44,209 nt of DNA, taken from UHGV virus genome UHGV-0377591; one strand, given 5' to 3'. Below the pieces are notes generated by a model. The model saw only the letters and a list, made by a program, of their open reading frames with translations. It had not been told where the DNA came from and ran no database searches. The translations under genes and the position numbers were made by a program. Below, in pieces: positions 282-44,209 of this stretch (position 1 is the stretch's first letter; each line of letters opens with the position of its first letter). The DNA is from a virus.

Positions 282-311
282 GTCAATTACTCCTTAGTCA
301 GTTGATATGTG

Positions 312-325
312 AATAGTACCATATT
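312..325 (-). promoter_or_regulatory. Imperfect operator palindrome AATAG-TACC-ATATT upstream of the HTH gene
   Basis: Minus-strand reading gives TACTATTCACAT about 30 nt upstream of the HTH start, the same core as the class II promoters below; no good -35. Confidence 0.4.
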
Positions 326-345: not shown

Positions 346-374
346 TTGACATGTGAATAGTTCGCTATTATAGT
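346..374 (+). promoter_or_regulatory. Early sigma70-like promoter (class I) with operator palindrome in the spacer
   Basis: TTGACA (346-351), 17-bp spacer, TATAGT (369-374); AATAG-TTCG-CTATT at 356-369 lies inside the spacer. Confidence 0.6.
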
Positions 375-18705: not shown

Positions 18706-18813
18706 TCTTTAATCCTTTGGTTAAGAGGTTACAGGTTAATGGTAAATGCGCCAGACGGGAACCACCCGCTTTTCGTGTGCGACACTAGGCGCAAAATTAT
18801 TCTATCACATTAC

Positions 18814-18842
18814 TTGCGCACCCCAACATAATAGGATACTAT
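18814..18842 (+). promoter_or_regulatory. Class II promoter with operator palindrome overlapping the -10
   Basis: TTGCGC (18814-18819), 17-bp spacer, TACTAT (18837-18842); AATAG-GATA-CTATT at 18830-18843. Confidence 0.5.
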
Positions 18843-18883
18843 TCACTTACACCAACAATGTTAACTCAAACAGGATCTACACC

Positions 18884-27881: not shown

Positions 27882-28113
27882 GGGTAATCACCTCTGATTT
27901 CGTCTTGCCTTCGTTGTCAGCGGCGGCGGCCTTAGATTCGTCCTGCTGCTGCCGTTGTGTTTTCTTCGCTAACTCAGCCTGTGCTTTCTGCTGTTGCTGC
28001 GAAACGAGATTCGCCCGGCCTTCGTTCCAGCCGCTGCGATACTGGTAGATTCCGTAGCCGTATGTCAGGAGAATGAAACATGCTCCAGCTACGACAGTTG
28101 CGTTAAGATTCAT
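27718..28113 (-). CDS. Inner-membrane spanin (Rz-like), 131 aa
   Basis: N-terminal transmembrane segment ATVVAGACFILLTYGYGIY followed by Gln-rich helical region QQQQKAQAELAKKTQRQQQ; strong AGGGGA ribosome-binding site. Confidence 0.7.
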   Translation of the reverse strand: MNLNATVVAGACFILLTYGYGIYQYRSGWNEGRANLVSQQQQKAQAELAKKTQRQQQDESKAAAADNEGKTKSEVITREVVKYIKTPGRSVCTFDDARVLLKSHAVANANSIPGYDDDAAAVQTGTAKYRR

Positions 28114-28363
28114 GTTTCCCCTTTCTCGATAAGTAAAGCCCCGCTTTAAGGCGGGGCGCTAGTCCTTATCATTTAAACATAGAAACGGCGTAATCTCAGT
28201 AAACCAGTTACTTTTTACACAAGCAATAGAGTATGGCCCTTCCGAACGCGTCAGCGTAACTACACTCAGGACTTACGTCCCGCTCCGTTACCTGCCCGCG
28301 CCGCGGTCGCTTGCTCATACTTCACAAGCTCAGGTGGAGCTTATCATATTTTCAGTGAAAAGT

Positions 28364-28379
28364 CAACTATTCGAATAGT
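28364..28379. promoter_or_regulatory. Perfect 16-bp palindrome AACTATTCGAATAGTT (everted operator half-sites)
   Basis: CTATT-CG-AATAG core; 55 bp upstream of the class II promoter. Confidence 0.5.
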
Positions 28380-28432: not shown

Positions 28433-28461
28433 TTGCGCGCACCAACATAATAGGGTACTAT
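28433..28461 (+). promoter_or_regulatory. Class II promoter with operator palindrome overlapping the -10
   Basis: TTGCGC (28433-28438), 17-bp spacer, TACTAT (28456-28461); AATAG-GGTA-CTATT at 28449-28462. Confidence 0.5.
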
Positions 28462-28488
28462 TCAGTTAACTTAAACAGGAGATGAGAA

Positions 28489-39620: not shown

Positions 39621-39763
39621 CAGCTACCTCCAGTTCGCCGTAAACATGCTCGTTGTCGCCGCTGCATACACTGCAAACTCGCAACTCAGCATAAAGCTGT
39701 TCCAGTTTCTCAACCGTCAGATACTTATACATCTTCCGTCTCTCCTCTCGTTTGTGTAAATGA

Positions 39764-39792
39764 ATAGTAGCCTATTCTATCTTAATGTGCAA
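39764..39792 (-). promoter_or_regulatory. Class II promoter (leftward) with operator palindrome
   Basis: Minus strand TTGCAC, 17-bp spacer, TACTAT; plus-strand AATAG-TAGC-CTATT at 39763-39776. Confidence 0.5.
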
Positions 39793-40868: not shown

Positions 40869-41056
40869 TTCGCCCCTTTGAATTTAAAATTGTTGCCGAT
40901 GAGTTCTAAATCTCCCCCAGGCATGCGTATTACCGAGTTTACTCCTCCCACATTTTGCACAATCACGATGTACTCCCCTGGAAATAAATCAGATTTTAAT
41001 TCAATTATGCCGTGGCTACCGTCGGCACATTTCACCAACTGACCCTCCTTAAACAT
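40865..41056 (-). CDS. Hypothetical protein, 63 aa; first gene of the leftward accessory operon
   Basis: ORF track; class II promoter about 35 nt upstream. Confidence 0.5.
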   Translation of the reverse strand: MFKEGQLVKCADGSHGIIELKSDLFPGEYIVIVQNVGGVNSVIRMPGGDLELIGNNFKFKGAK

Positions 41057-41090
41057 AACCCTAACTCCTCTGTCTCGTTTCGATAAGTGA

Positions 41091-41119
41091 ATAGTATCCT
41101 ATTATATTGGGGTGTGCAA
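41091..41119 (-). promoter_or_regulatory. Class II promoter (leftward) with operator palindrome
   Basis: Minus strand TTGCAC, 17-bp spacer, TACTAT; plus-strand AATAG-TATC-CTATT at 41090-41103; extra half-site GAATAGTT at 41122-41129. Confidence 0.55.
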
Positions 41120-41492
41120 GAGAATAGTTACGTTGCCGTTGTGATTCTTTAGGGAAGGTTGTGCCTTTATTCTTATTACTTGGTAACTAAAGGGCAGGCC
41201 TTAAGCCTGCCCAATAATCGTTACATTTTTACGGTTGCGAATCTACGGCACATTAAGAAAATCAGATACTTAAGATATATGCTGCCGATGAGAATAGAGC
41301 TTGCCCAAGGCAACCGGAGATACTAAGAAAGGAAAGTTACTATAATTCTCATGTTCAGTAAACTGCCGCCTAACACTTCGCGTTGGGCGCTCGTTTTCGG
41401 CGGGTTTTACAAGGTGAACAGGAATCAAAGTAACTAAGATATAGAAGCACCTTAAACGAAGATTTTCATAATGTCAATAGTTGAGATTATGT

Positions 41493-41521
41493 TTGATTTC
41501 CCATTATTCGCAATGTATACT
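41493..41521 (+). promoter_or_regulatory. Sigma70-like promoter for the rightward regulator/primase operon
   Basis: TTGATT (41493-41498), 17-bp spacer, TATACT (41516-41521); no operator palindrome. Confidence 0.5.
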
Positions 41522-41553
41522 TGGTTTCGTTAACTGATGATGAGGGGTTGAGA

Positions 41554-41724
41554 ATGACACAGAATGAAGTAGCTGAGCGTATTGGGGTTACTCGCCGCAC
41601 GCTTAATAACTGGTTAAAGAGTGGGAAGTTCCCGGATTGTTGTATCCGCATTATGGGCCGCCGGCAGCCGGGTACGTTTGACCCGGAGAAAGTGGAAGCG
41701 TGGATTAAGGAGAACGTGAAATGA
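41554..41724 (+). CDS. Small HTH DNA-binding protein (AlpA/excisionase-like fold), 56 aa
   Basis: Start moved to ATG 41554 (GAGGGG upstream). MTQNEVAERIGVTRRTLNNWLKSGKFP. Confidence 0.6.
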   Translation: MTQNEVAERIGVTRRTLNNWLKSGKFPDCCIRIMGRRQPGTFDPEKVEAWIKENVK

Positions 41725-41954: not shown

Positions 41955-42012
41955 AAGAAAGCCCCGACGCGGTGAACGCCGAGGCCAAATTACTTGCTGA
42001 AGGAAATACAAC

Positions 42013-44209
42013 ATGTCCGATGTAATTTTATCCTACTCGTGGTCACGTCGCAACGCGCGGGCAGAGAAAAAGGATATAAACGTCAGAACCACACACACGG
42101 CAACACTGGACGACCTGAAAGAGCTAATTCAGCCGCTTGATGCTGTTCGTGACGGAATTAACCCGAAGACCGCGCCGGGGTATATCACTGCCGCGTGTGA
42201 CTCTACGCACAGCACCGTAAAAGACCCTGAAACCGCTGACTTTAAGCAAGCACGTAAAGGCTTCTTCTATCGCTGCGACGCGTCTGTAAGCAAATCGTCG
42301 CTCGCCTATCTGGACTTCGACAGCGCAACACCGGAAGAGTATCAGGAAGCTGTGCGCCTGGTTAAGCGCAGCCGCCTGGCTATGTGCCTCTACACCACGG
42401 CATCCCATACCGATGAGTCACCACGCTTTCGCGTCGTCATGCCGATGGCCCGTCCTGTTGAGGGTGGTGACATCATCCGTGTTCGTCATGGCTTGCTTGA
42501 GCACTTCTTCAAAGGCATGGGCGCTGACCGCAGCGGGTTTACTCTGTCACAACCGATGTACCTGCCGCCGGTTGGCTCTACGGTTATCTGGTCGCGCCGC
42601 AACGACCTGATTGACCCGGACGAGTTACTGGAAGGTATCCCCGCCGTTGACGTTAGCAGCGCATCGGATTACCAGATACCGGAAGAACTGCGTACCGCGT
42701 TTACTGATGCGTTTGAGGCGCTGGCGTTTGAGTACGGCGGTGTTATGACGCCCCGCGGCCTTAAGATGCCAGCTACGCCGGAACATGCAGAAAATTACAG
42801 CGACCCTACGCCGCGGCCGGACGACTTCCTGCTGTGCTTCCCGCGCGAGGGCTACGAAGCGCCGAACGTAACCATGATCCACGACACTGACATTACGGCA
42901 ACCGAAGGCATGTCGCCGAAAGAGGTGTGGAAGTATGCGTGTGATGCGACCGGGCTGCCGTTCAGTGAAGTCGCCGAGGCTATCGGATGGGGTGCGCGTG
43001 AATCTGTTTCATGCAGCCTGGACGACCTGGAAGACGATGATGGCTCAGAGGAGGACGAGCTACCGGAACCGGTAAAGGCTGATTTCGTCGTTGAAGGTTA
43101 TATGCCGTCAGACTGCATCTGGGATATCGTCGGGGAGTCGGGCACATACAAATCGTTCTATACGCTGGGGATGATGTATCTTAGCGCCGCCGGATACCGG
43201 TTCGCCGGGGCGGACACCCAGCGTTGCCATCACTTCTATATCGACGGTGAGGGTGGCGCGGCTACACGCACACGTATTGACGCACTCGCGGCTAAATACG
43301 GCGAGGAAGGTAAAGATTATGTACATGTCATCGACATGGGCGAAGTCGGAAAACTGAAAAGCCTGATTAAGTTAATGCGCGAAACTGCGGGGGATGAACC
43401 TATTGGCATGGTTGCGTTTGACACCCTCAACCAGACGCTGGCCCTGACGATCGATAAGTTCGACGAGAACAGCTCATCAACGGCAATCGGTATGGGTAAA
43501 GTTATCGCCATCCTGAAAGAAGTACGCGACGCAACTAAAGCTGCGGTGGGTGTTGTCCACCATACACCGAAGGGCGGAAAGAAAGCCCGTGGTAGCGGGG
43601 CACTGTATGCTGGCGTCGACGTGGAACTGACAATCGAACGTGCAACCGTCCGCCAGATAAACGTATACCACTCTAAATTCAAACATGGGCCTCAACAGAA
43701 AACGGTTGGCATGGTGCTGGAGTCTGTACAGTTCCGTGAAGCACCACCGCCGAAAGAGTACCGTGCTGTCGAGTTCCTGGGTAGCACAGAGGAGTACGGC
43801 ACAATCGTAAACCTGGACCTGCCTGAGCCGCACAAGGCGCTTGTGCTGATGCCGTGGGGCTTCGAGCCGTTCAAGACTGACGAGGAGAAAGAGCGGGAAG
43901 AAGGGCTGACAAAGGAAGGTAAAGAAAACGTAAAGAATGCTGTAAAACGTGGGAAGGATGAAGGGCGTAAGGAATCGATACTCGCCGCGCTTGAAGACCT
44001 GCAACAGTCAGATGACACAGGTCGCGGTTTTACTCAGCAGCAGATAGTGGCCCGTTCCGGTGACTTTTCTGTGACTAACACCCATCTTGATAAAATGCTG
44101 AAAGATGGTGAACTAATGCTAGGCTGTGATGCTAATGGCGAAGTAGTACCGAGAACGTATCGTATGCCTGAAAGAATAGGGGATAGACTAAGACCGAAGA
44201 CAATATACG
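42013..44209 (+). CDS. Primase/helicase: AEP (Prim-Pol) N-terminal domain plus RecA-like helicase domain; 3'-truncated by the window edge
   Basis: Open frame from ATG 42013 to the window end (732 codons; absent from the track because it has no stop). AEP-like LAYLDFDS and TASHTDE; Walker A IVGESGTYKS; Walker B MVAFDTLN. Confidence 0.8.
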   Translation, partial: MSDVILSYSWSRRNARAEKKDINVRTTHTATLDDLKELIQPLDAVRDGINPKTAPGYITAACDSTHSTVKDPETADFKQARKGFFYRCDASVSKSSLAYLDFDSATPEEYQEAVRLVKRSRLAMCLYTTASHTDESPRFRVVMPMARPVEGGDIIRVRHGLLEHFFKGMGADRSGFTLSQPMYLPPVGSTVIWSRRNDLIDPDELLEGIPAVDVSSASDYQIPEELRTAFTDAFEALAFEYGGVMTPRGLKMPATPEHAENYSDPTPRPDDFLLCFPREGYEAPNVTMIHDTDITATEGMSPKEVWKYACDATGLPFSEVAEAIGWGARESVSCSLDDLEDDDGSEEDELPEPVKADFVVEGYMPSDCIWDIVGESGTYKSFYTLGMMYLSAAGYRFAGADTQRCHHFYIDGEGGAATRTRIDALAAKYGEEGKDYVHVIDMGEVGKLKSLIKLMRETAGDEPIGMVAFDTLNQTLALTIDKFDENSSSTAIGMGKVIAILKEVRDATKAAVGVVHHTPKGGKKARGSGALYAGVDVELTIERATVRQINVYHSKFKHGPQQKTVGMVLESVQFREAPPPKEYRAVEFLGSTEEYGTIVNLDLPEPHKALVLMPWGFEPFKTDEEKEREEGLTKEGKENVKNAVKRGKDEGRKESILAALEDLQQSDDTGRGFTQQQIVARSGDFSVTNTHLDKMLKDGELMLGCDANGEVVPRTYRMPERIGDRLRPKTIY

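What the first reader, a model, noticed from the sequence alone, without database searches (positions are those of the whole stretch)
41130..41520. 390-bp AT-rich noncoding region with ACTAAGA-type direct repeats next to the primase operon
This is the longest noncoding stretch in the window, between the leftward accessory operon promoter and the rightward regulator/primase promoter. It contains GATACTTAAGATATA (about 41274-41290), GAGATACTAAGAAAGG (about 41327-41342), GTAACTAAGATATAG (about 41440-41456), a GC-rich hairpin (GGGCAGGC-CTTAA-GCCTGCCC at 41191-41212) and a second at about 41375-41412. Repeats beside a primase/helicase gene are a common origin-of-replication arrangement; a small RNA is an alternative.
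Basis: inference. Interest (0 to 1): 0.45.

Follow-up and report, generated by a model that had tools for sequence, protein, structure and literature searches.

The report
Transcribed hairpin leader between divergent phage promoters
The AT-rich gap next to the primase genes of this E. coli phage is best read as a promoter hub whose interior is transcribed leftward into a conserved, hairpin-rich non-coding leader RNA, an ordinary kind of control region; a role as replication origin is neither shown nor excluded.

Summary
The window is a complete Kagunavirus (Guernseyvirinae) genome. The described features exist, but the three motif coordinates are about 10 nt too high, and the gap is really 41057-41553 (497 bp, 39.6% GC against 50.4%).

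New here:
- A leftward sigma-70-type promoter, TTGACA-N17-TAAGGT (41477->41449), sits back-to-back with the rightward promoter TTGATT-N17-TATACT (41493-41521).
- Its hexamers and spacing are invariant in 45 distinct relatives, across three unrelated spacer classes. A fourth class has TTGAAA-N18-TATAAT at the same place.
- So the "non-transcribed" interval is probably transcribed leftward.
- It contains two imperfect palindromes of about 100 nt (41335-41435 and 41161-41251), which include both reported hairpins. No ORF is conserved.
- The GGGCAGGC hairpin plus UUUAGUU looks like a minus-strand terminator just upstream of the known leftward "box" promoter.
- A second cassette of the same design (28366->28114) heads the spanin/capsid genes.
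- The repeat AG[AT][AT]ACT(T)A[AG]G is real: 3 of its 4 genomic copies lie in the gap.

Against an origin: irregular repeat spacing, no DnaA boxes, GC skew that follows coding strand, and modules that reassort independently of helicase-primase type.

Best reading: a promoter plus structured leader/attenuator region (about 0.55). Origin is about 0.2.

The parts
41084..41120 (-). P-left 'box' promoter of the leftward accessory operon. It reads TTGCAC (41119->41114), N17, TACTAT (41096->41091), with the palindromic core AATAGGATACTATT.
   Evidence: The 37-nt box is repeated at 18813-18849(+) and 28442-28464(+). Its 17-nt core has 6-7 copies against 0.06 expected. The same consensus was annotated as a 'phage promoter' in fBC-Eco01.
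41121..41150 (.). Spacer S0 (AGAATAGTTACGTTGCCGTTGTGATTCTTT) between the box promoter and hairpin element 1.
   Evidence: It is conserved in all Kagunavirus variants examined and in several Jerseyviruses, whatever module follows it.
41161..41251 (-). Hairpin element 1 ('module A1'), a roughly 90-nt imperfect palindrome. GTGCC...GGCAC closes GTAAC...GTTAC, which closes the GC hairpin.
   Evidence: Folding z-score is -4.0 on the minus strand. Identity to Salmonella phage SE2 is 95%, against a genome median of 73%. Only the loop, the top pair and two adjacent bases vary among 21 distinct copies. In other relatives it is replaced by the non-homologous palindromic modules A2, A3 or B.
41182..41212 (-). 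Terminator-like hairpin GGGCAGGC-UUAAG-GCCUGCCC (41212->41192) followed by UUUAGUUACC (41191->41182).
   Evidence: The terminator scan flags it on the minus strand only, with 9 pairs of which 7 are G-C. It is annotated as a terminator on the same strand in fBC-Eco01. Its top pair changes C-G to T-A, with a G/A mismatch in one phage.
41264..41275 (+). Repeat copy AGATACTTAAGA, at the junction between module A1 and segment S2.
   Evidence: The core TCAG-NN-ACTT is kept at this junction in every sequence class.
41301..41313 (-). Small hairpin UUGCC-UUG-GGCAA followed by a pyrimidine-rich tail.
   Evidence: It is flagged as weakly terminator-like on the minus strand. It is conserved with small changes.
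41318..41328 (+). Repeat copy AGATACTAAGA. On the minus strand it lies within the U-rich tract UUUCCUUUCUUAGUAUCU that follows hairpin element 2.
   Evidence: It is conserved in Kagunaviruses and Jerseyviruses.
41335..41435 (-). Hairpin element 2, a 101-nt imperfect palindrome. Its base is AGTTACT/AGTAACT, its lower stem is conserved, and its GC-rich tip is replaced between lineages.
   Evidence: Six sequence variants all fold into the same long hairpin, with z-scores from -4.2 to -8.5 and 0 of 200 shuffles as stable. Pairs change on both sides while staying paired, for example G-C to A-U to U-A at one pair. No ORF is conserved through it.
41429..41439 (+). Repeat copy AGTAACTAAGA. It is the right-hand base of hairpin element 2 and covers the first transcribed bases of the P-L2 transcript.
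41449..41477 (-). P-L2, a newly recognised leftward sigma-70-type promoter. It reads TTGACA (41477->41472), N17, TAAGGT (41454->41449), with an inferred start near 41442.
   Evidence: TTGAC[AT]-N17-TAAG[GTC]T is invariant in 45 distinct relatives of three spacer classes that share no spacer sequence. Only 2 exact matches occur in the genome against 0.08 expected. In fBC-Eco01 the equivalent TTGAAA-N18-TATAAT coincides with the depositors' predicted host promoter. The standard scan missed P-L2 because its -10 matches only 3 of 6 positions.
41493..41521 (+). P-right, TTGATT-N17-TATACT, the promoter of the HTH, 77-aa protein and helicase-primase operon.
   Evidence: Promoter scan. Both hexamers are conserved in all classes despite differing spacers.
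41554..41724 (+). Gene for a 56-aa excisionase-family HTH protein (HTH_17). It is a candidate binder of the direct repeats; this is inference only.
   Evidence: Pfam HTH_17 E=2e-7 and PHROG 'excisionase and transcriptional regulator'.
28114..28366 (-). Second cassette of the same design. It comprises promoter TTGACT-N17-TAAGCT (28366->28338), a leader of about 220 nt, a terminator-like hairpin GCCCCGC..GCGGGGC plus UUUACUUAUC (28157->28138), and then the RBS and ATG at 28113.
   Evidence: Segment 28224-28366 is 77-86% identical to the leader that sits upstream of the HTH gene in other Kagunaviruses. It is 95-99% identical in 147 of 181 phage records, Salmonella phages included.

Best explanation
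The gap is the transcription control hub at the point where the phage's two gene arms diverge. It is not a silent spacer, and it holds three host-type promoters.

P-right (41493-41521) drives the HTH, 77-aa protein and helicase-primase operon. P-L2 (41477->41449) lies back-to-back with it and fires leftward. P-left, the 'box' promoter (41120->41084), sits about 360 bp further left, directly before the accessory genes.

That RNA would begin near 41442 and fold first into a 100-nt hairpin (41435->41335) followed by a U-rich tract. A small hairpin follows, then a second long hairpin element (41251->41161). The GC-rich tip of that element plus UUUAGUU resembles an intrinsic terminator ending near 41185.

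I infer that this leader limits or times how much transcription from P-L2 enters the leftward arm (accessory genes, then lysis, terminase and structural genes). It would do so by termination or attenuation, possibly also by processing or stabilisation at the long hairpins. The ACTAAGA-type repeats are parts of this unit: the transcript start and hairpin base, the two hairpin tails, and a module junction. They may also be binding sites for a phage DNA-binding protein such as the neighbouring HTH.

Shown here: conservation of the promoters, conservation of the hairpins, absence of a conserved ORF, and the second cassette. Inferred: that the transcript exists, where it ends, and what it regulates.
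For: 1. Promoter. TTGAC[AT]-N17-TAAG[GTC]T is invariant in 45 distinct relatives, while the 17-nt spacer falls into three unrelated classes. A fourth class has TTGAAA-N18-TATAAT at the same position, and the fBC-Eco01 depositors annotated that independently as a host promoter on the same strand. The genome has only two exact matches to the pattern. Both are on the minus strand, and both lie in the two large divergent intergenic regions (also in phiWAO78-1).

2. Structure. Element 2 folds as one long hairpin in six sequence variants, with z-scores from -4.2 to -8.5. Its tip is replaced between lineages and some pairs change on both sides. Element 1 and its substitutes A2 and B are also whole-module palindromes.

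3. Terminator-like ends lie on the minus strand only. The A1 hairpin is annotated as a terminator in fBC-Eco01.

4. Not coding. No ORF is conserved on either strand, and one-base length changes occur in a T run.

5. Paralogous design. A promoter, a leader of about 220 nt, a GC hairpin with a U-rich tail and then a gene occur at 28366->28113. In 'class III' Kagunaviruses a copy of that leader replaces hairpin 2 upstream of the HTH gene. Of 181 phage records matching the locus-2 leader, 43 extra places were counted, consistent with records that carry it at both loci.

6. Constraint. Module A1 is 95% identical to Salmonella phage SE2, against a genome median of 73%. The locus-2 leader is 95-99% identical across the two genera.

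7. The few wobble pairs favour the minus strand: a G-U pair in 14 sequences would be an A-C mismatch on the plus strand.
Against: - No expression data exist, so the transcript, its start and its ends are predictions.
- The -10 hexamer TAAGGT is weak, matching 3 of 6 positions.
- The substitute modules A2, A3 and B have no U tract after their GC hairpins. Termination therefore cannot be the shared function of that position.
- Hairpin 2 has an A-U-rich base, which is poor for intrinsic termination.
- The stems are almost fully Watson-Crick on both strands, with 1-2 G-U in 35-40 pairs. A DNA-level palindrome would look the same.
- The single-stranded parts of A1 are invariant. That points to sequence-specific recognition, which this model does not explain.
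- Part of A1's near-identity between genera may come from exchange of a box-S0-A1 cassette rather than from constraint (Kenya-K9 and SE-W109).
- The two leaders share no significant sequence.
Confidence: 0.55

Rival explanations
1. Replication origin. The AT-rich interval between two divergent promoters is where replication starts. The four direct repeats bind an initiator, either the HTH or the 77-aa protein. The long palindromes extrude or melt under the negative supercoiling made by divergent transcription. The helicase-primase then loads there, or the P-L2 or P-right transcript primes the phage's family-A polymerase, as at the T7 primary origin or ColE1.
For: The gap has the lowest-GC composition class in the genome, 39.6%. 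It lies at the divergence of the two gene arms and next to the replication genes. A direct repeat is enriched there. It holds two palindromes of about 100 bp that are almost fully Watson-Crick on both strands. It contains a strongly conserved non-coding island with invariant unpaired stretches. The phage encodes its own helicase-primase (AAA_25, the same P-loop type as plasmid RepA helicases), a Pol I and an SSB.
Against: Repeat spacing is 82, 54 and 111 bp, which is neither phased nor arrayed. No DnaA boxes are present. GC skew follows coding strand, including the reversed gene block at 19-21 kb, so it gives no independent origin signal. Leader classes and A modules combine freely with the two helicase-primase N-terminal types, which are about 25% identical. 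The promoter-hairpin-terminator design recurs upstream of structural genes. No plasmid or host homologue was found. No published origin mapping for this subfamily was found.
Confidence: 0.2
2. Free-standing trans-acting small RNA(s). The P-L2 transcript ends at the hairpin tails, giving RNAs of about 115 nt (ending near 41325) and/or about 255 nt (ending near 41185). These act in trans on host or phage mRNAs or proteins. The invariant single-stranded stretches of module A1 would be the seed or binding surface.
For: The unit has a promoter, a structured body, a terminator-like end and no ORF. A 37-nt unpaired stretch of A1 is invariant across E. coli and Salmonella phages.
Against: The U tracts are short and interrupted. 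The substitute modules lack them altogether. No extended complementarity was found to the phage genome, and no similarity to E. coli genomes. No Rfam family matches. At the second locus the equivalent RNA runs directly into a ribosome-binding site and gene, which is leader behaviour.
Confidence: 0.15
3. A micro-protein gene. A + strand ORF of 28-31 codons (41351-41437, MFSKLPPNTSRWALVFGGFYKVNRNQSN) would be expressed from the TATAAT at 41341.
For: An ORF in this frame is open in several variants, and its ends are similar (FSKL......YKVNRNQSN). Most length variants differ by multiples of 3.
Against: The frame is broken in L018 and L020, where the element is 108 nt long. There is no Shine-Dalgarno sequence. 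The start codon is ATG, GTG or TTG, or absent. The TATAAT is not conserved: it is GATAAT, AATAAT or GGTAAT in Kagunaviruses and absent in Jerseyviruses. The variable bases fall in an internal loop of the hairpin, and the conserved ends are the paired arms of the palindrome.
Confidence: 0.03

Closest known systems
Lambda late control region (PR' promoter, 6S leader RNA, tR' terminator, Q antiterminator)
   Same: A host-type promoter sits at the head of a long arm ordered lysis, terminase, head, tail. It is followed by an untranslated leader of roughly 200-250 nt that ends in an intrinsic-terminator-like hairpin.
   Different: No Q-like protein was identified. The neighbouring 56-aa HTH is too small to be a Q/AlpA-type factor; AlpA has at least 142 residues and an N-terminal ring (PMC9371919), and the HTH has no significant match (E below 0.4) to any solved structure. 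A second promoter follows the terminator. The leader contains 100-nt hairpins. Termination and read-through are untested.
HK022 put elements (cis-acting leader RNA hairpins that make RNA polymerase terminator-resistant; from my own knowledge)
   Same: Structured RNA lies just downstream of promoters that head long operons. There are two loci per genome, and in some relatives the two carry copies of the same leader.
   Different: There is no sequence or Rfam similarity. The put elements are two short stem-loops, not 100-nt hairpins. No test of antitermination was possible. This is a resemblance only.
Iteron-type and primase-linked origins (lambda ori, P4 ori/crr, RSF1010 oriV with its ssiA/ssiB palindrome; from my own knowledge)
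   Same: The interval is AT-rich, has a repeated short motif and palindromes, and lies beside a helicase-primase gene whose ATPase domain is of the RepA/AAA_25 type.
   Different: The repeats are irregularly spaced. There is no co-variation with the helicase-primase type. The design is duplicated at a structural-gene promoter. A conserved promoter transcribes through it.
RNase III processing hairpins in T7 early mRNA and the lambda N leader (from my own knowledge)
   Same: Long imperfect hairpins with internal loops lie in untranslated parts of phage operon transcripts. Structure is kept while sequence drifts.
   Different: Cleavage cannot be tested here. These hairpins are longer (35-40 pairs) and sit at the very 5' end of the transcript.

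Membership tests
Sigma-70-type bacterial promoter (P-L2) | -35 and -10 hexamers at 16-18 bp spacing, kept in relatives | tested here: met
   TTGACA-N17-TAAGGT. The hexamers and the 17-bp spacing are invariant in 45 distinct sequences of three spacer classes. There are 2 genomic matches against 0.08 expected. The -10 matches the consensus at only 3 of 6 positions, but these include the key A2 and T6.
Sigma-70-type bacterial promoter (P-L2) | A transcription start a few bases downstream of the -10 | not testable with these tools
   This needs 5'-end mapping of RNA from infected cells.
Intrinsic (Rho-independent) terminator | GC-rich stem-loop followed directly by a U-rich tract on the transcribed strand | tested here: inconclusive
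   The A1 hairpin has 9 pairs (7 G-C) plus UUUAGUU, on the minus strand only, and is annotated as a terminator in fBC-Eco01. The U tract is short and interrupted. The substitute modules A2, A3 and B have no U tract.
Iteron-type replication origin | Three or more direct repeats in a regular, helically phased array | tested here: not met
   Four copies start at 41182, 41264, 41318 and 41429, giving spacings of 82, 54 and 111 bp.
Iteron-type replication origin | Adjacent AT-rich unwinding region | tested here: met
   The gap is 39.6% GC against 50.4% for the genome. Other promoter-bearing intergenic regions are equally AT-rich, for example 39% at 18.8-19.2 kb.
Iteron-type replication origin | Host DnaA boxes (present in many origins, not all) | tested here: not met
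   No TTATCCACA with up to 1 mismatch occurs in 41057-41553. Genome-wide there are 10 against 8.2 expected.
Iteron-type replication origin | Origin sequence co-varies with its initiator protein | tested here: inconclusive
   Leader classes and A modules combine with both helicase-primase N-terminal types, which argues against recognition by that domain. The initiator is unknown and could be the HTH or the 77-aa protein.
Iteron-type replication origin | Supports replication; copy-number peak during infection | not testable with these tools
   This needs origin cloning or marker-frequency analysis. GC skew is confounded by gene orientation.
Any described RNA family (Rfam 15) | Covariance-model score at or above the family's gathering threshold | tested here: not met
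   There are no matches at gathering scores in the whole window. The relaxed search around the gap gave only sub-threshold hits driven by the terminator-like hairpin (E 3-5, 18-20 bits against 70-79 needed).
Structured cis-regulatory leader RNA / non-coding RNA gene | Promoter, conserved secondary structure with compensatory change, and no conserved ORF | tested here: met
   Expression itself is untested. The transcribed strand is supported only weakly by wobble pairs.
Q/AlpA-type antitermination system | An antiterminator protein with an RNA-exit-channel ring domain plus an HTH | tested here: not met
   The adjacent HTH has 56 aa and matches HTH_17 only. It has no significant match (E below 0.4) to any solved chain, AlpA and Q included. 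AlpA uses residues up to at least 142 (PMC9371919). The other phage proteins were not screened.

The most novel reading that the evidence does not exclude
The two long hairpin leaders that follow the TTGAC-N18-TAAGNT promoters would be a new family of phage cis-acting RNA elements. They would control entry of host RNA polymerase into the late arm without a Q-like protein, in the manner of the put elements. Alternatively, the P-L2 transcript would double as the primer or activator of a transcription-dependent origin for the phage's own polymerase and helicase-primase. Parts of these leaders are 95-99% identical between E. coli and Salmonella phages whose genomes are about 74% identical. Either case would be a new regulatory RNA class conserved across Guernseyvirinae.
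Probability: 0.15. Interest if true: 0.65.

Novelty: new member of a known kind. Interest (0 to 1): 0.35.

Why it matters
Guernseyvirinae (Kagunavirus, Jerseyvirus) are among the most frequently isolated therapeutic and biocontrol phages of E. coli and Salmonella. I found no published account of their promoters beyond software predictions, and none of their origin or of any non-coding RNA.

This analysis gives a concrete, testable map of the central control region. It has three promoters and a leftward non-coding leader with two conserved 100-nt hairpins. A sister cassette lies in front of the capsid genes.

If the leader gates late transcription, it explains how a phage without its own RNA polymerase or a Q-like protein times its late genes. 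It would also point to sites to avoid or exploit when engineering these phages.

If the reading holds only as stated, this is an ordinary phage regulatory region, and the origin remains unmapped.

Tried and rejected
- Rfam: no family at gathering scores in the whole window. The relaxed search gave only sub-threshold hits to the terminator-like hairpin.
- tRNA and tmRNA: none found.
- DnaA boxes: none in the gap.
- GC skew as an origin marker: rejected, because it tracks coding strand.
- Exact ACTAAGA enrichment: not significant.
- Homology to E. coli genomes or plasmids: none. One 28-nt plasmid hit probably comes from a phage-like record.
- A + strand promoter at the TATAAT (41341-41346): rejected. 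It is not conserved, and its variable bases fall in a hairpin internal loop.
- The minus-strand promoter TTGCGA-16-CATAAT proposed by the scan (41513->41486): its -35 is not conserved in Jerseyviruses.
- The 52-aa minus-strand ORF (41270-41428) and the 55-aa + strand ORF (41159-41326): not conserved. A 1-nt deletion in SE2 and Ent3 breaks the 55-aa + strand ORF.
- Deciding the strand from wobble pairs and mirrored-structure energies: too few G-U pairs to decide.
- RNAalifold on MAFFT alignments recovered only the lower stem, because the tips are not alignable.
- The adjacent HTH as an AlpA-like antiterminator: rejected on size and lack of similarity.
- Distant contexts of the HTH (L058, L059) were unrelated proteins.
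- The helicase-primase homologue search returned only Guernseyvirinae, so no distant context was available.
- PDB sequence search with the helicase-primase: nothing.
- Shared motifs between the two leaders: not significant, P about 0.25.
- Literature searches for an origin, promoters, transcriptomes or small RNAs in this subfamily, and for phage MB78: nothing relevant beyond the fBC-Eco01 software predictions.
Full report
**Identity and context**

The window is a complete, circularly permuted genome of a Kagunavirus (Guernseyvirinae). It is about 93% identical to Escherichia phage phiWAO78-1 around the finding. The helicase-primase ORF starts at 42013, runs off the end of the window and stops at bases 42-44.

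Gene order in the annotated relative shows that the gap under study is where the two arms of the genome diverge. To the right lie a 56-aa HTH protein, a 77-aa protein, the helicase-primase and further replication genes. To the left lie small accessory genes, then lysis, terminase, head and tail genes.

**Checking the observation**

The non-coding gap is 41057-41553 (497 bp), between the ATG at 41056 (minus strand) and the ATG at 41554. GC content is 39.6% against 50.4% for the genome.

The GGGCAGGC hairpin is at 41192-41212, as stated. The three quoted motifs exist but lie about 10 nt lower than stated (41265-41279, 41317-41332, 41430-41444). The 'second hairpin' is the tip of a much larger palindrome.

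Exact ACTAAGA is not enriched in the genome (7 copies against 4.1 expected). The longer motif AG[AT][AT]ACT(T)A[AG]G occurs only four times in 44 kb. Three of those are in the gap, all on the + strand, and a relaxed fourth copy is at 41182. The pattern was defined after inspection, so its statistics are indicative only. The copies are conserved in relatives.

**Comparative anatomy**

The gap is conserved in 450 phage records of E. coli and Salmonella phages. I aligned 14 annotated loci and then about 45 more from IMG/VR. The region turns out to be a mosaic of modules.

(i) The leftward 'box' promoter (41084-41120). It reads TTGCAC-N17-TACTAT around the palindrome AATAGGATACTATT. It recurs at 6-7 sites in the genome. 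The fBC-Eco01 authors predicted the same consensus as a 'phage promoter'.

(ii) A conserved 30-nt spacer, S0 (41121-41150).

(iii) 'Module A1' (41161-41251). This is a three-tier imperfect palindrome whose tip is the GGGCAGGC hairpin.

(iv) Segment S2, which contains a small hairpin (41301-41313).

(v) A 101-nt imperfect palindrome (41335-41435).

(vi) The rightward promoter TTGATT-N17-TATACT (41493-41521).

**The new promoter**

On the minus strand, TTGACA (41477->41472), 17 nt, then TAAGGT (41454->41449) lies back-to-back with P-right. The two -35 hexamers are 15 bp apart.

In 45 distinct relatives the hexamers TTGAC[AT] and TAAG[GTC]T and the 17-bp spacing never change. The spacer itself falls into three unrelated sequence classes. 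A fourth class, fBC-Eco01, has TTGAAA-N18-TATAAT at the same place. That coincides exactly with the host promoter the depositors predicted on that strand.

The pattern TTGAC-N18-TAAGNT has only two exact matches in the genome (0.08 expected). Both are on the minus strand. The consensus scan missed this promoter because its -10 matches only 3 of 6 positions.

**What that transcript would look like**

It would fold at once into the 41435->41335 hairpin. Six sequence variants of this element share the lower stem but have unrelated GC-rich tips. All fold into the same long hairpin, with z-scores from -4.2 to -8.5 and none of 200 shuffles as stable.

Pairs change on both sides while staying paired (G-C, A-U and U-A at one pair). 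One pair is G-U in 14 sequences on the minus strand, which would be an A-C mismatch on the plus strand. Overall there are too few wobble pairs to fix the strand.

The hairpin is followed by UUUCCUUUCUUAGUAUCU, then by the small hairpin. Next comes module A1, whose tip plus UUUAGUUACC is terminator-like on the minus strand only. That tip is annotated as a terminator in fBC-Eco01. The box promoter follows directly.

They are the transcript start and hairpin base (41429), the tail after hairpin 2 (41318), a module junction (41264) and the terminator tail (41182).

No ORF is conserved on either strand, and single-base length changes occur. The TATAAT at 41341 is not conserved.

**A sister cassette**

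The other exact match to the promoter pattern (28366->28338) is followed by a leader of about 220 nt. Then comes a GC hairpin with the tail UUUACUUAUC (28157->28138), and then the ribosome-binding site and ATG at 28113.

Segment 28224-28366 is 77-86% identical to the leader that replaces hairpin 2 upstream of the HTH gene in 'class III' Kagunaviruses. The locus-2 leader query matched 224 places in 181 phage records, consistent with some phages carrying the leader at both loci.

The promoter, hairpin and terminator design is therefore a general way of heading leftward operons in these phages. It is not something peculiar to the primase neighbourhood.

**Conservation**

Against Salmonella phage SE2 the genome averages 74% identity. 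Module A1 (41161-41280) is 95% identical, among the four best 120-nt windows in the genome. The others fall inside two well-conserved coding blocks.

Among 21 distinct A1 copies only the hairpin loop, its top pair (C-G, T-A, and one G/A) and two adjacent bases vary. The locus-2 leader is 95-99% identical in 147 of 181 records, Salmonella phages included.

Part of this could reflect exchange of cassettes. Kenya-K9 and SE-W109 carry a Kagunavirus-like box-S0-A1 block. However, A1 can be replaced by the non-homologous palindromic modules A2, A3 or B. This suggests a structural role at that position.

**Origin hypothesis**

Points in favour are the AT-richness, the palindromes, the enriched direct repeat, the position beside the replication genes and the conserved island.

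Points against:
- The repeats are spaced irregularly (82, 54 and 111 bp).
- There are no DnaA boxes.
- GC skew flips with coding strand, even for the small reversed gene block at 19-21 kb, so the skew minimum at 41.2 kb says nothing independent.
- Leader classes and A modules combine freely with two helicase-primase N-terminal types that are only about 25% identical.
- The same design sits in front of structural genes.
- No host or plasmid homologue exists.
- I found no published mapping of an origin, promoters or RNAs for this subfamily beyond software predictions.

An origin here, for example one activated or primed by the divergent transcription, remains possible. I rate it at about 0.2.

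**Comparison with known systems**

The arrangement works most like the head of the lambda late operon: a promoter, an untranslated leader and a terminator in front of lysis and morphogenesis genes. It also loosely resembles the HK022 put leaders.

I found no Q-like factor, although I did not screen the other phage proteins. The neighbouring HTH has 56 residues and matches HTH_17 only. It has no significant match (E below 0.4) to solved AlpA or Q structures. AlpA itself needs an N-terminal ring domain and more than 140 residues (PMC9371919). No Rfam family matches.

I therefore file the region as a new, undescribed member of a familiar kind: a phage promoter hub with a structured leader or attenuator RNA. 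Its exact mechanism (termination, processing, stabilisation or antitermination) is inferred, not shown.

**Verdict**

The origin interpretation is unsupported but not excluded.

Confidence in the promoter-hub and transcribed-leader reading is about 0.55. Interest is moderate at 0.35. A conserved pair of hairpin leaders in a therapeutically important phage group is worth an RNA-mapping experiment, but a regulatory region between divergent operons is not surprising in itself.

Noticed in passing
window 309-325(-), 353-369(-), 18830-18846(+), 28449-28465(+), 39760-39776(-), 41087-41103(-): A family of 'box' promoters (TTGCRC-N17-TACTAT) is built around the palindrome AATAGGATACTATT. Two copies sit in tandem where the Cro/DicA-like HTH_3 gene lies in phiWAO78-1. 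The palindrome may therefore be that repressor's operator, and the boxes a co-regulated early class.
   Followed up: partly
window 28114-28366 (-): This is a second cassette of promoter (TTGACT-N17-TAAGCT), leader and terminator-like hairpin, in front of the spanin, scaffold and capsid genes. Its leader is 95-99% identical in most of 181 E. coli and Salmonella phage records. That makes it a second strongly conserved non-coding island.
   Followed up: partly
window 42013-44209 and 1-44; loci L002, L030, L035-L047: The helicase-primase N-terminal region comes in two types among Kagunaviruses (MSDVILSYSW... and MNIVFATLRN..., about 25% identical). These reassort with the upstream non-coding modules. 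Only an AAA_25 domain is recognised by Pfam, and the primase fold is unidentified.
   Followed up: partly
L035 and L056, module A3 (the position equivalent to window 41151-41262): Module A3 contains a (GAGT)n tetranucleotide run of variable length: six copies in L035 and three in L056. A related CTCA run occurs in an A2 variant (L053). This could be a slippage-prone tract in the leader.
   Followed up: no
window 41960-41986: A strong terminator-like hairpin (11 pairs, tail UUCUUUUAUU) is scored on the minus strand. It lies inside the rightward operon, between the 77-aa gene and the helicase-primase gene. No minus-strand gene ends there. It may act in both directions or stop antisense transcription.
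   Followed up: no
L003 (Kenya-K9) 1341-1979 and L006 (SE-W109): These Salmonella Jerseyviruses carry a Kagunavirus-like block of box promoter, spacer and module A1, about 90-93% identical. Kenya-K9 has this in addition to its own box and module B, which gives it two box promoters in tandem. This is evidence of cassette exchange between the two genera.
   Followed up: partly
L007-L010 (Jerseyviruses UPWr_S5, SE2, Ent3, SS3e): The unannotated stretch upstream of the HTH gene is about 1 kb or more in these phages (975 to about 1,270 nt), roughly twice that of the window. It holds an extra palindromic module B and further sequence that I did not analyse.
   Followed up: no
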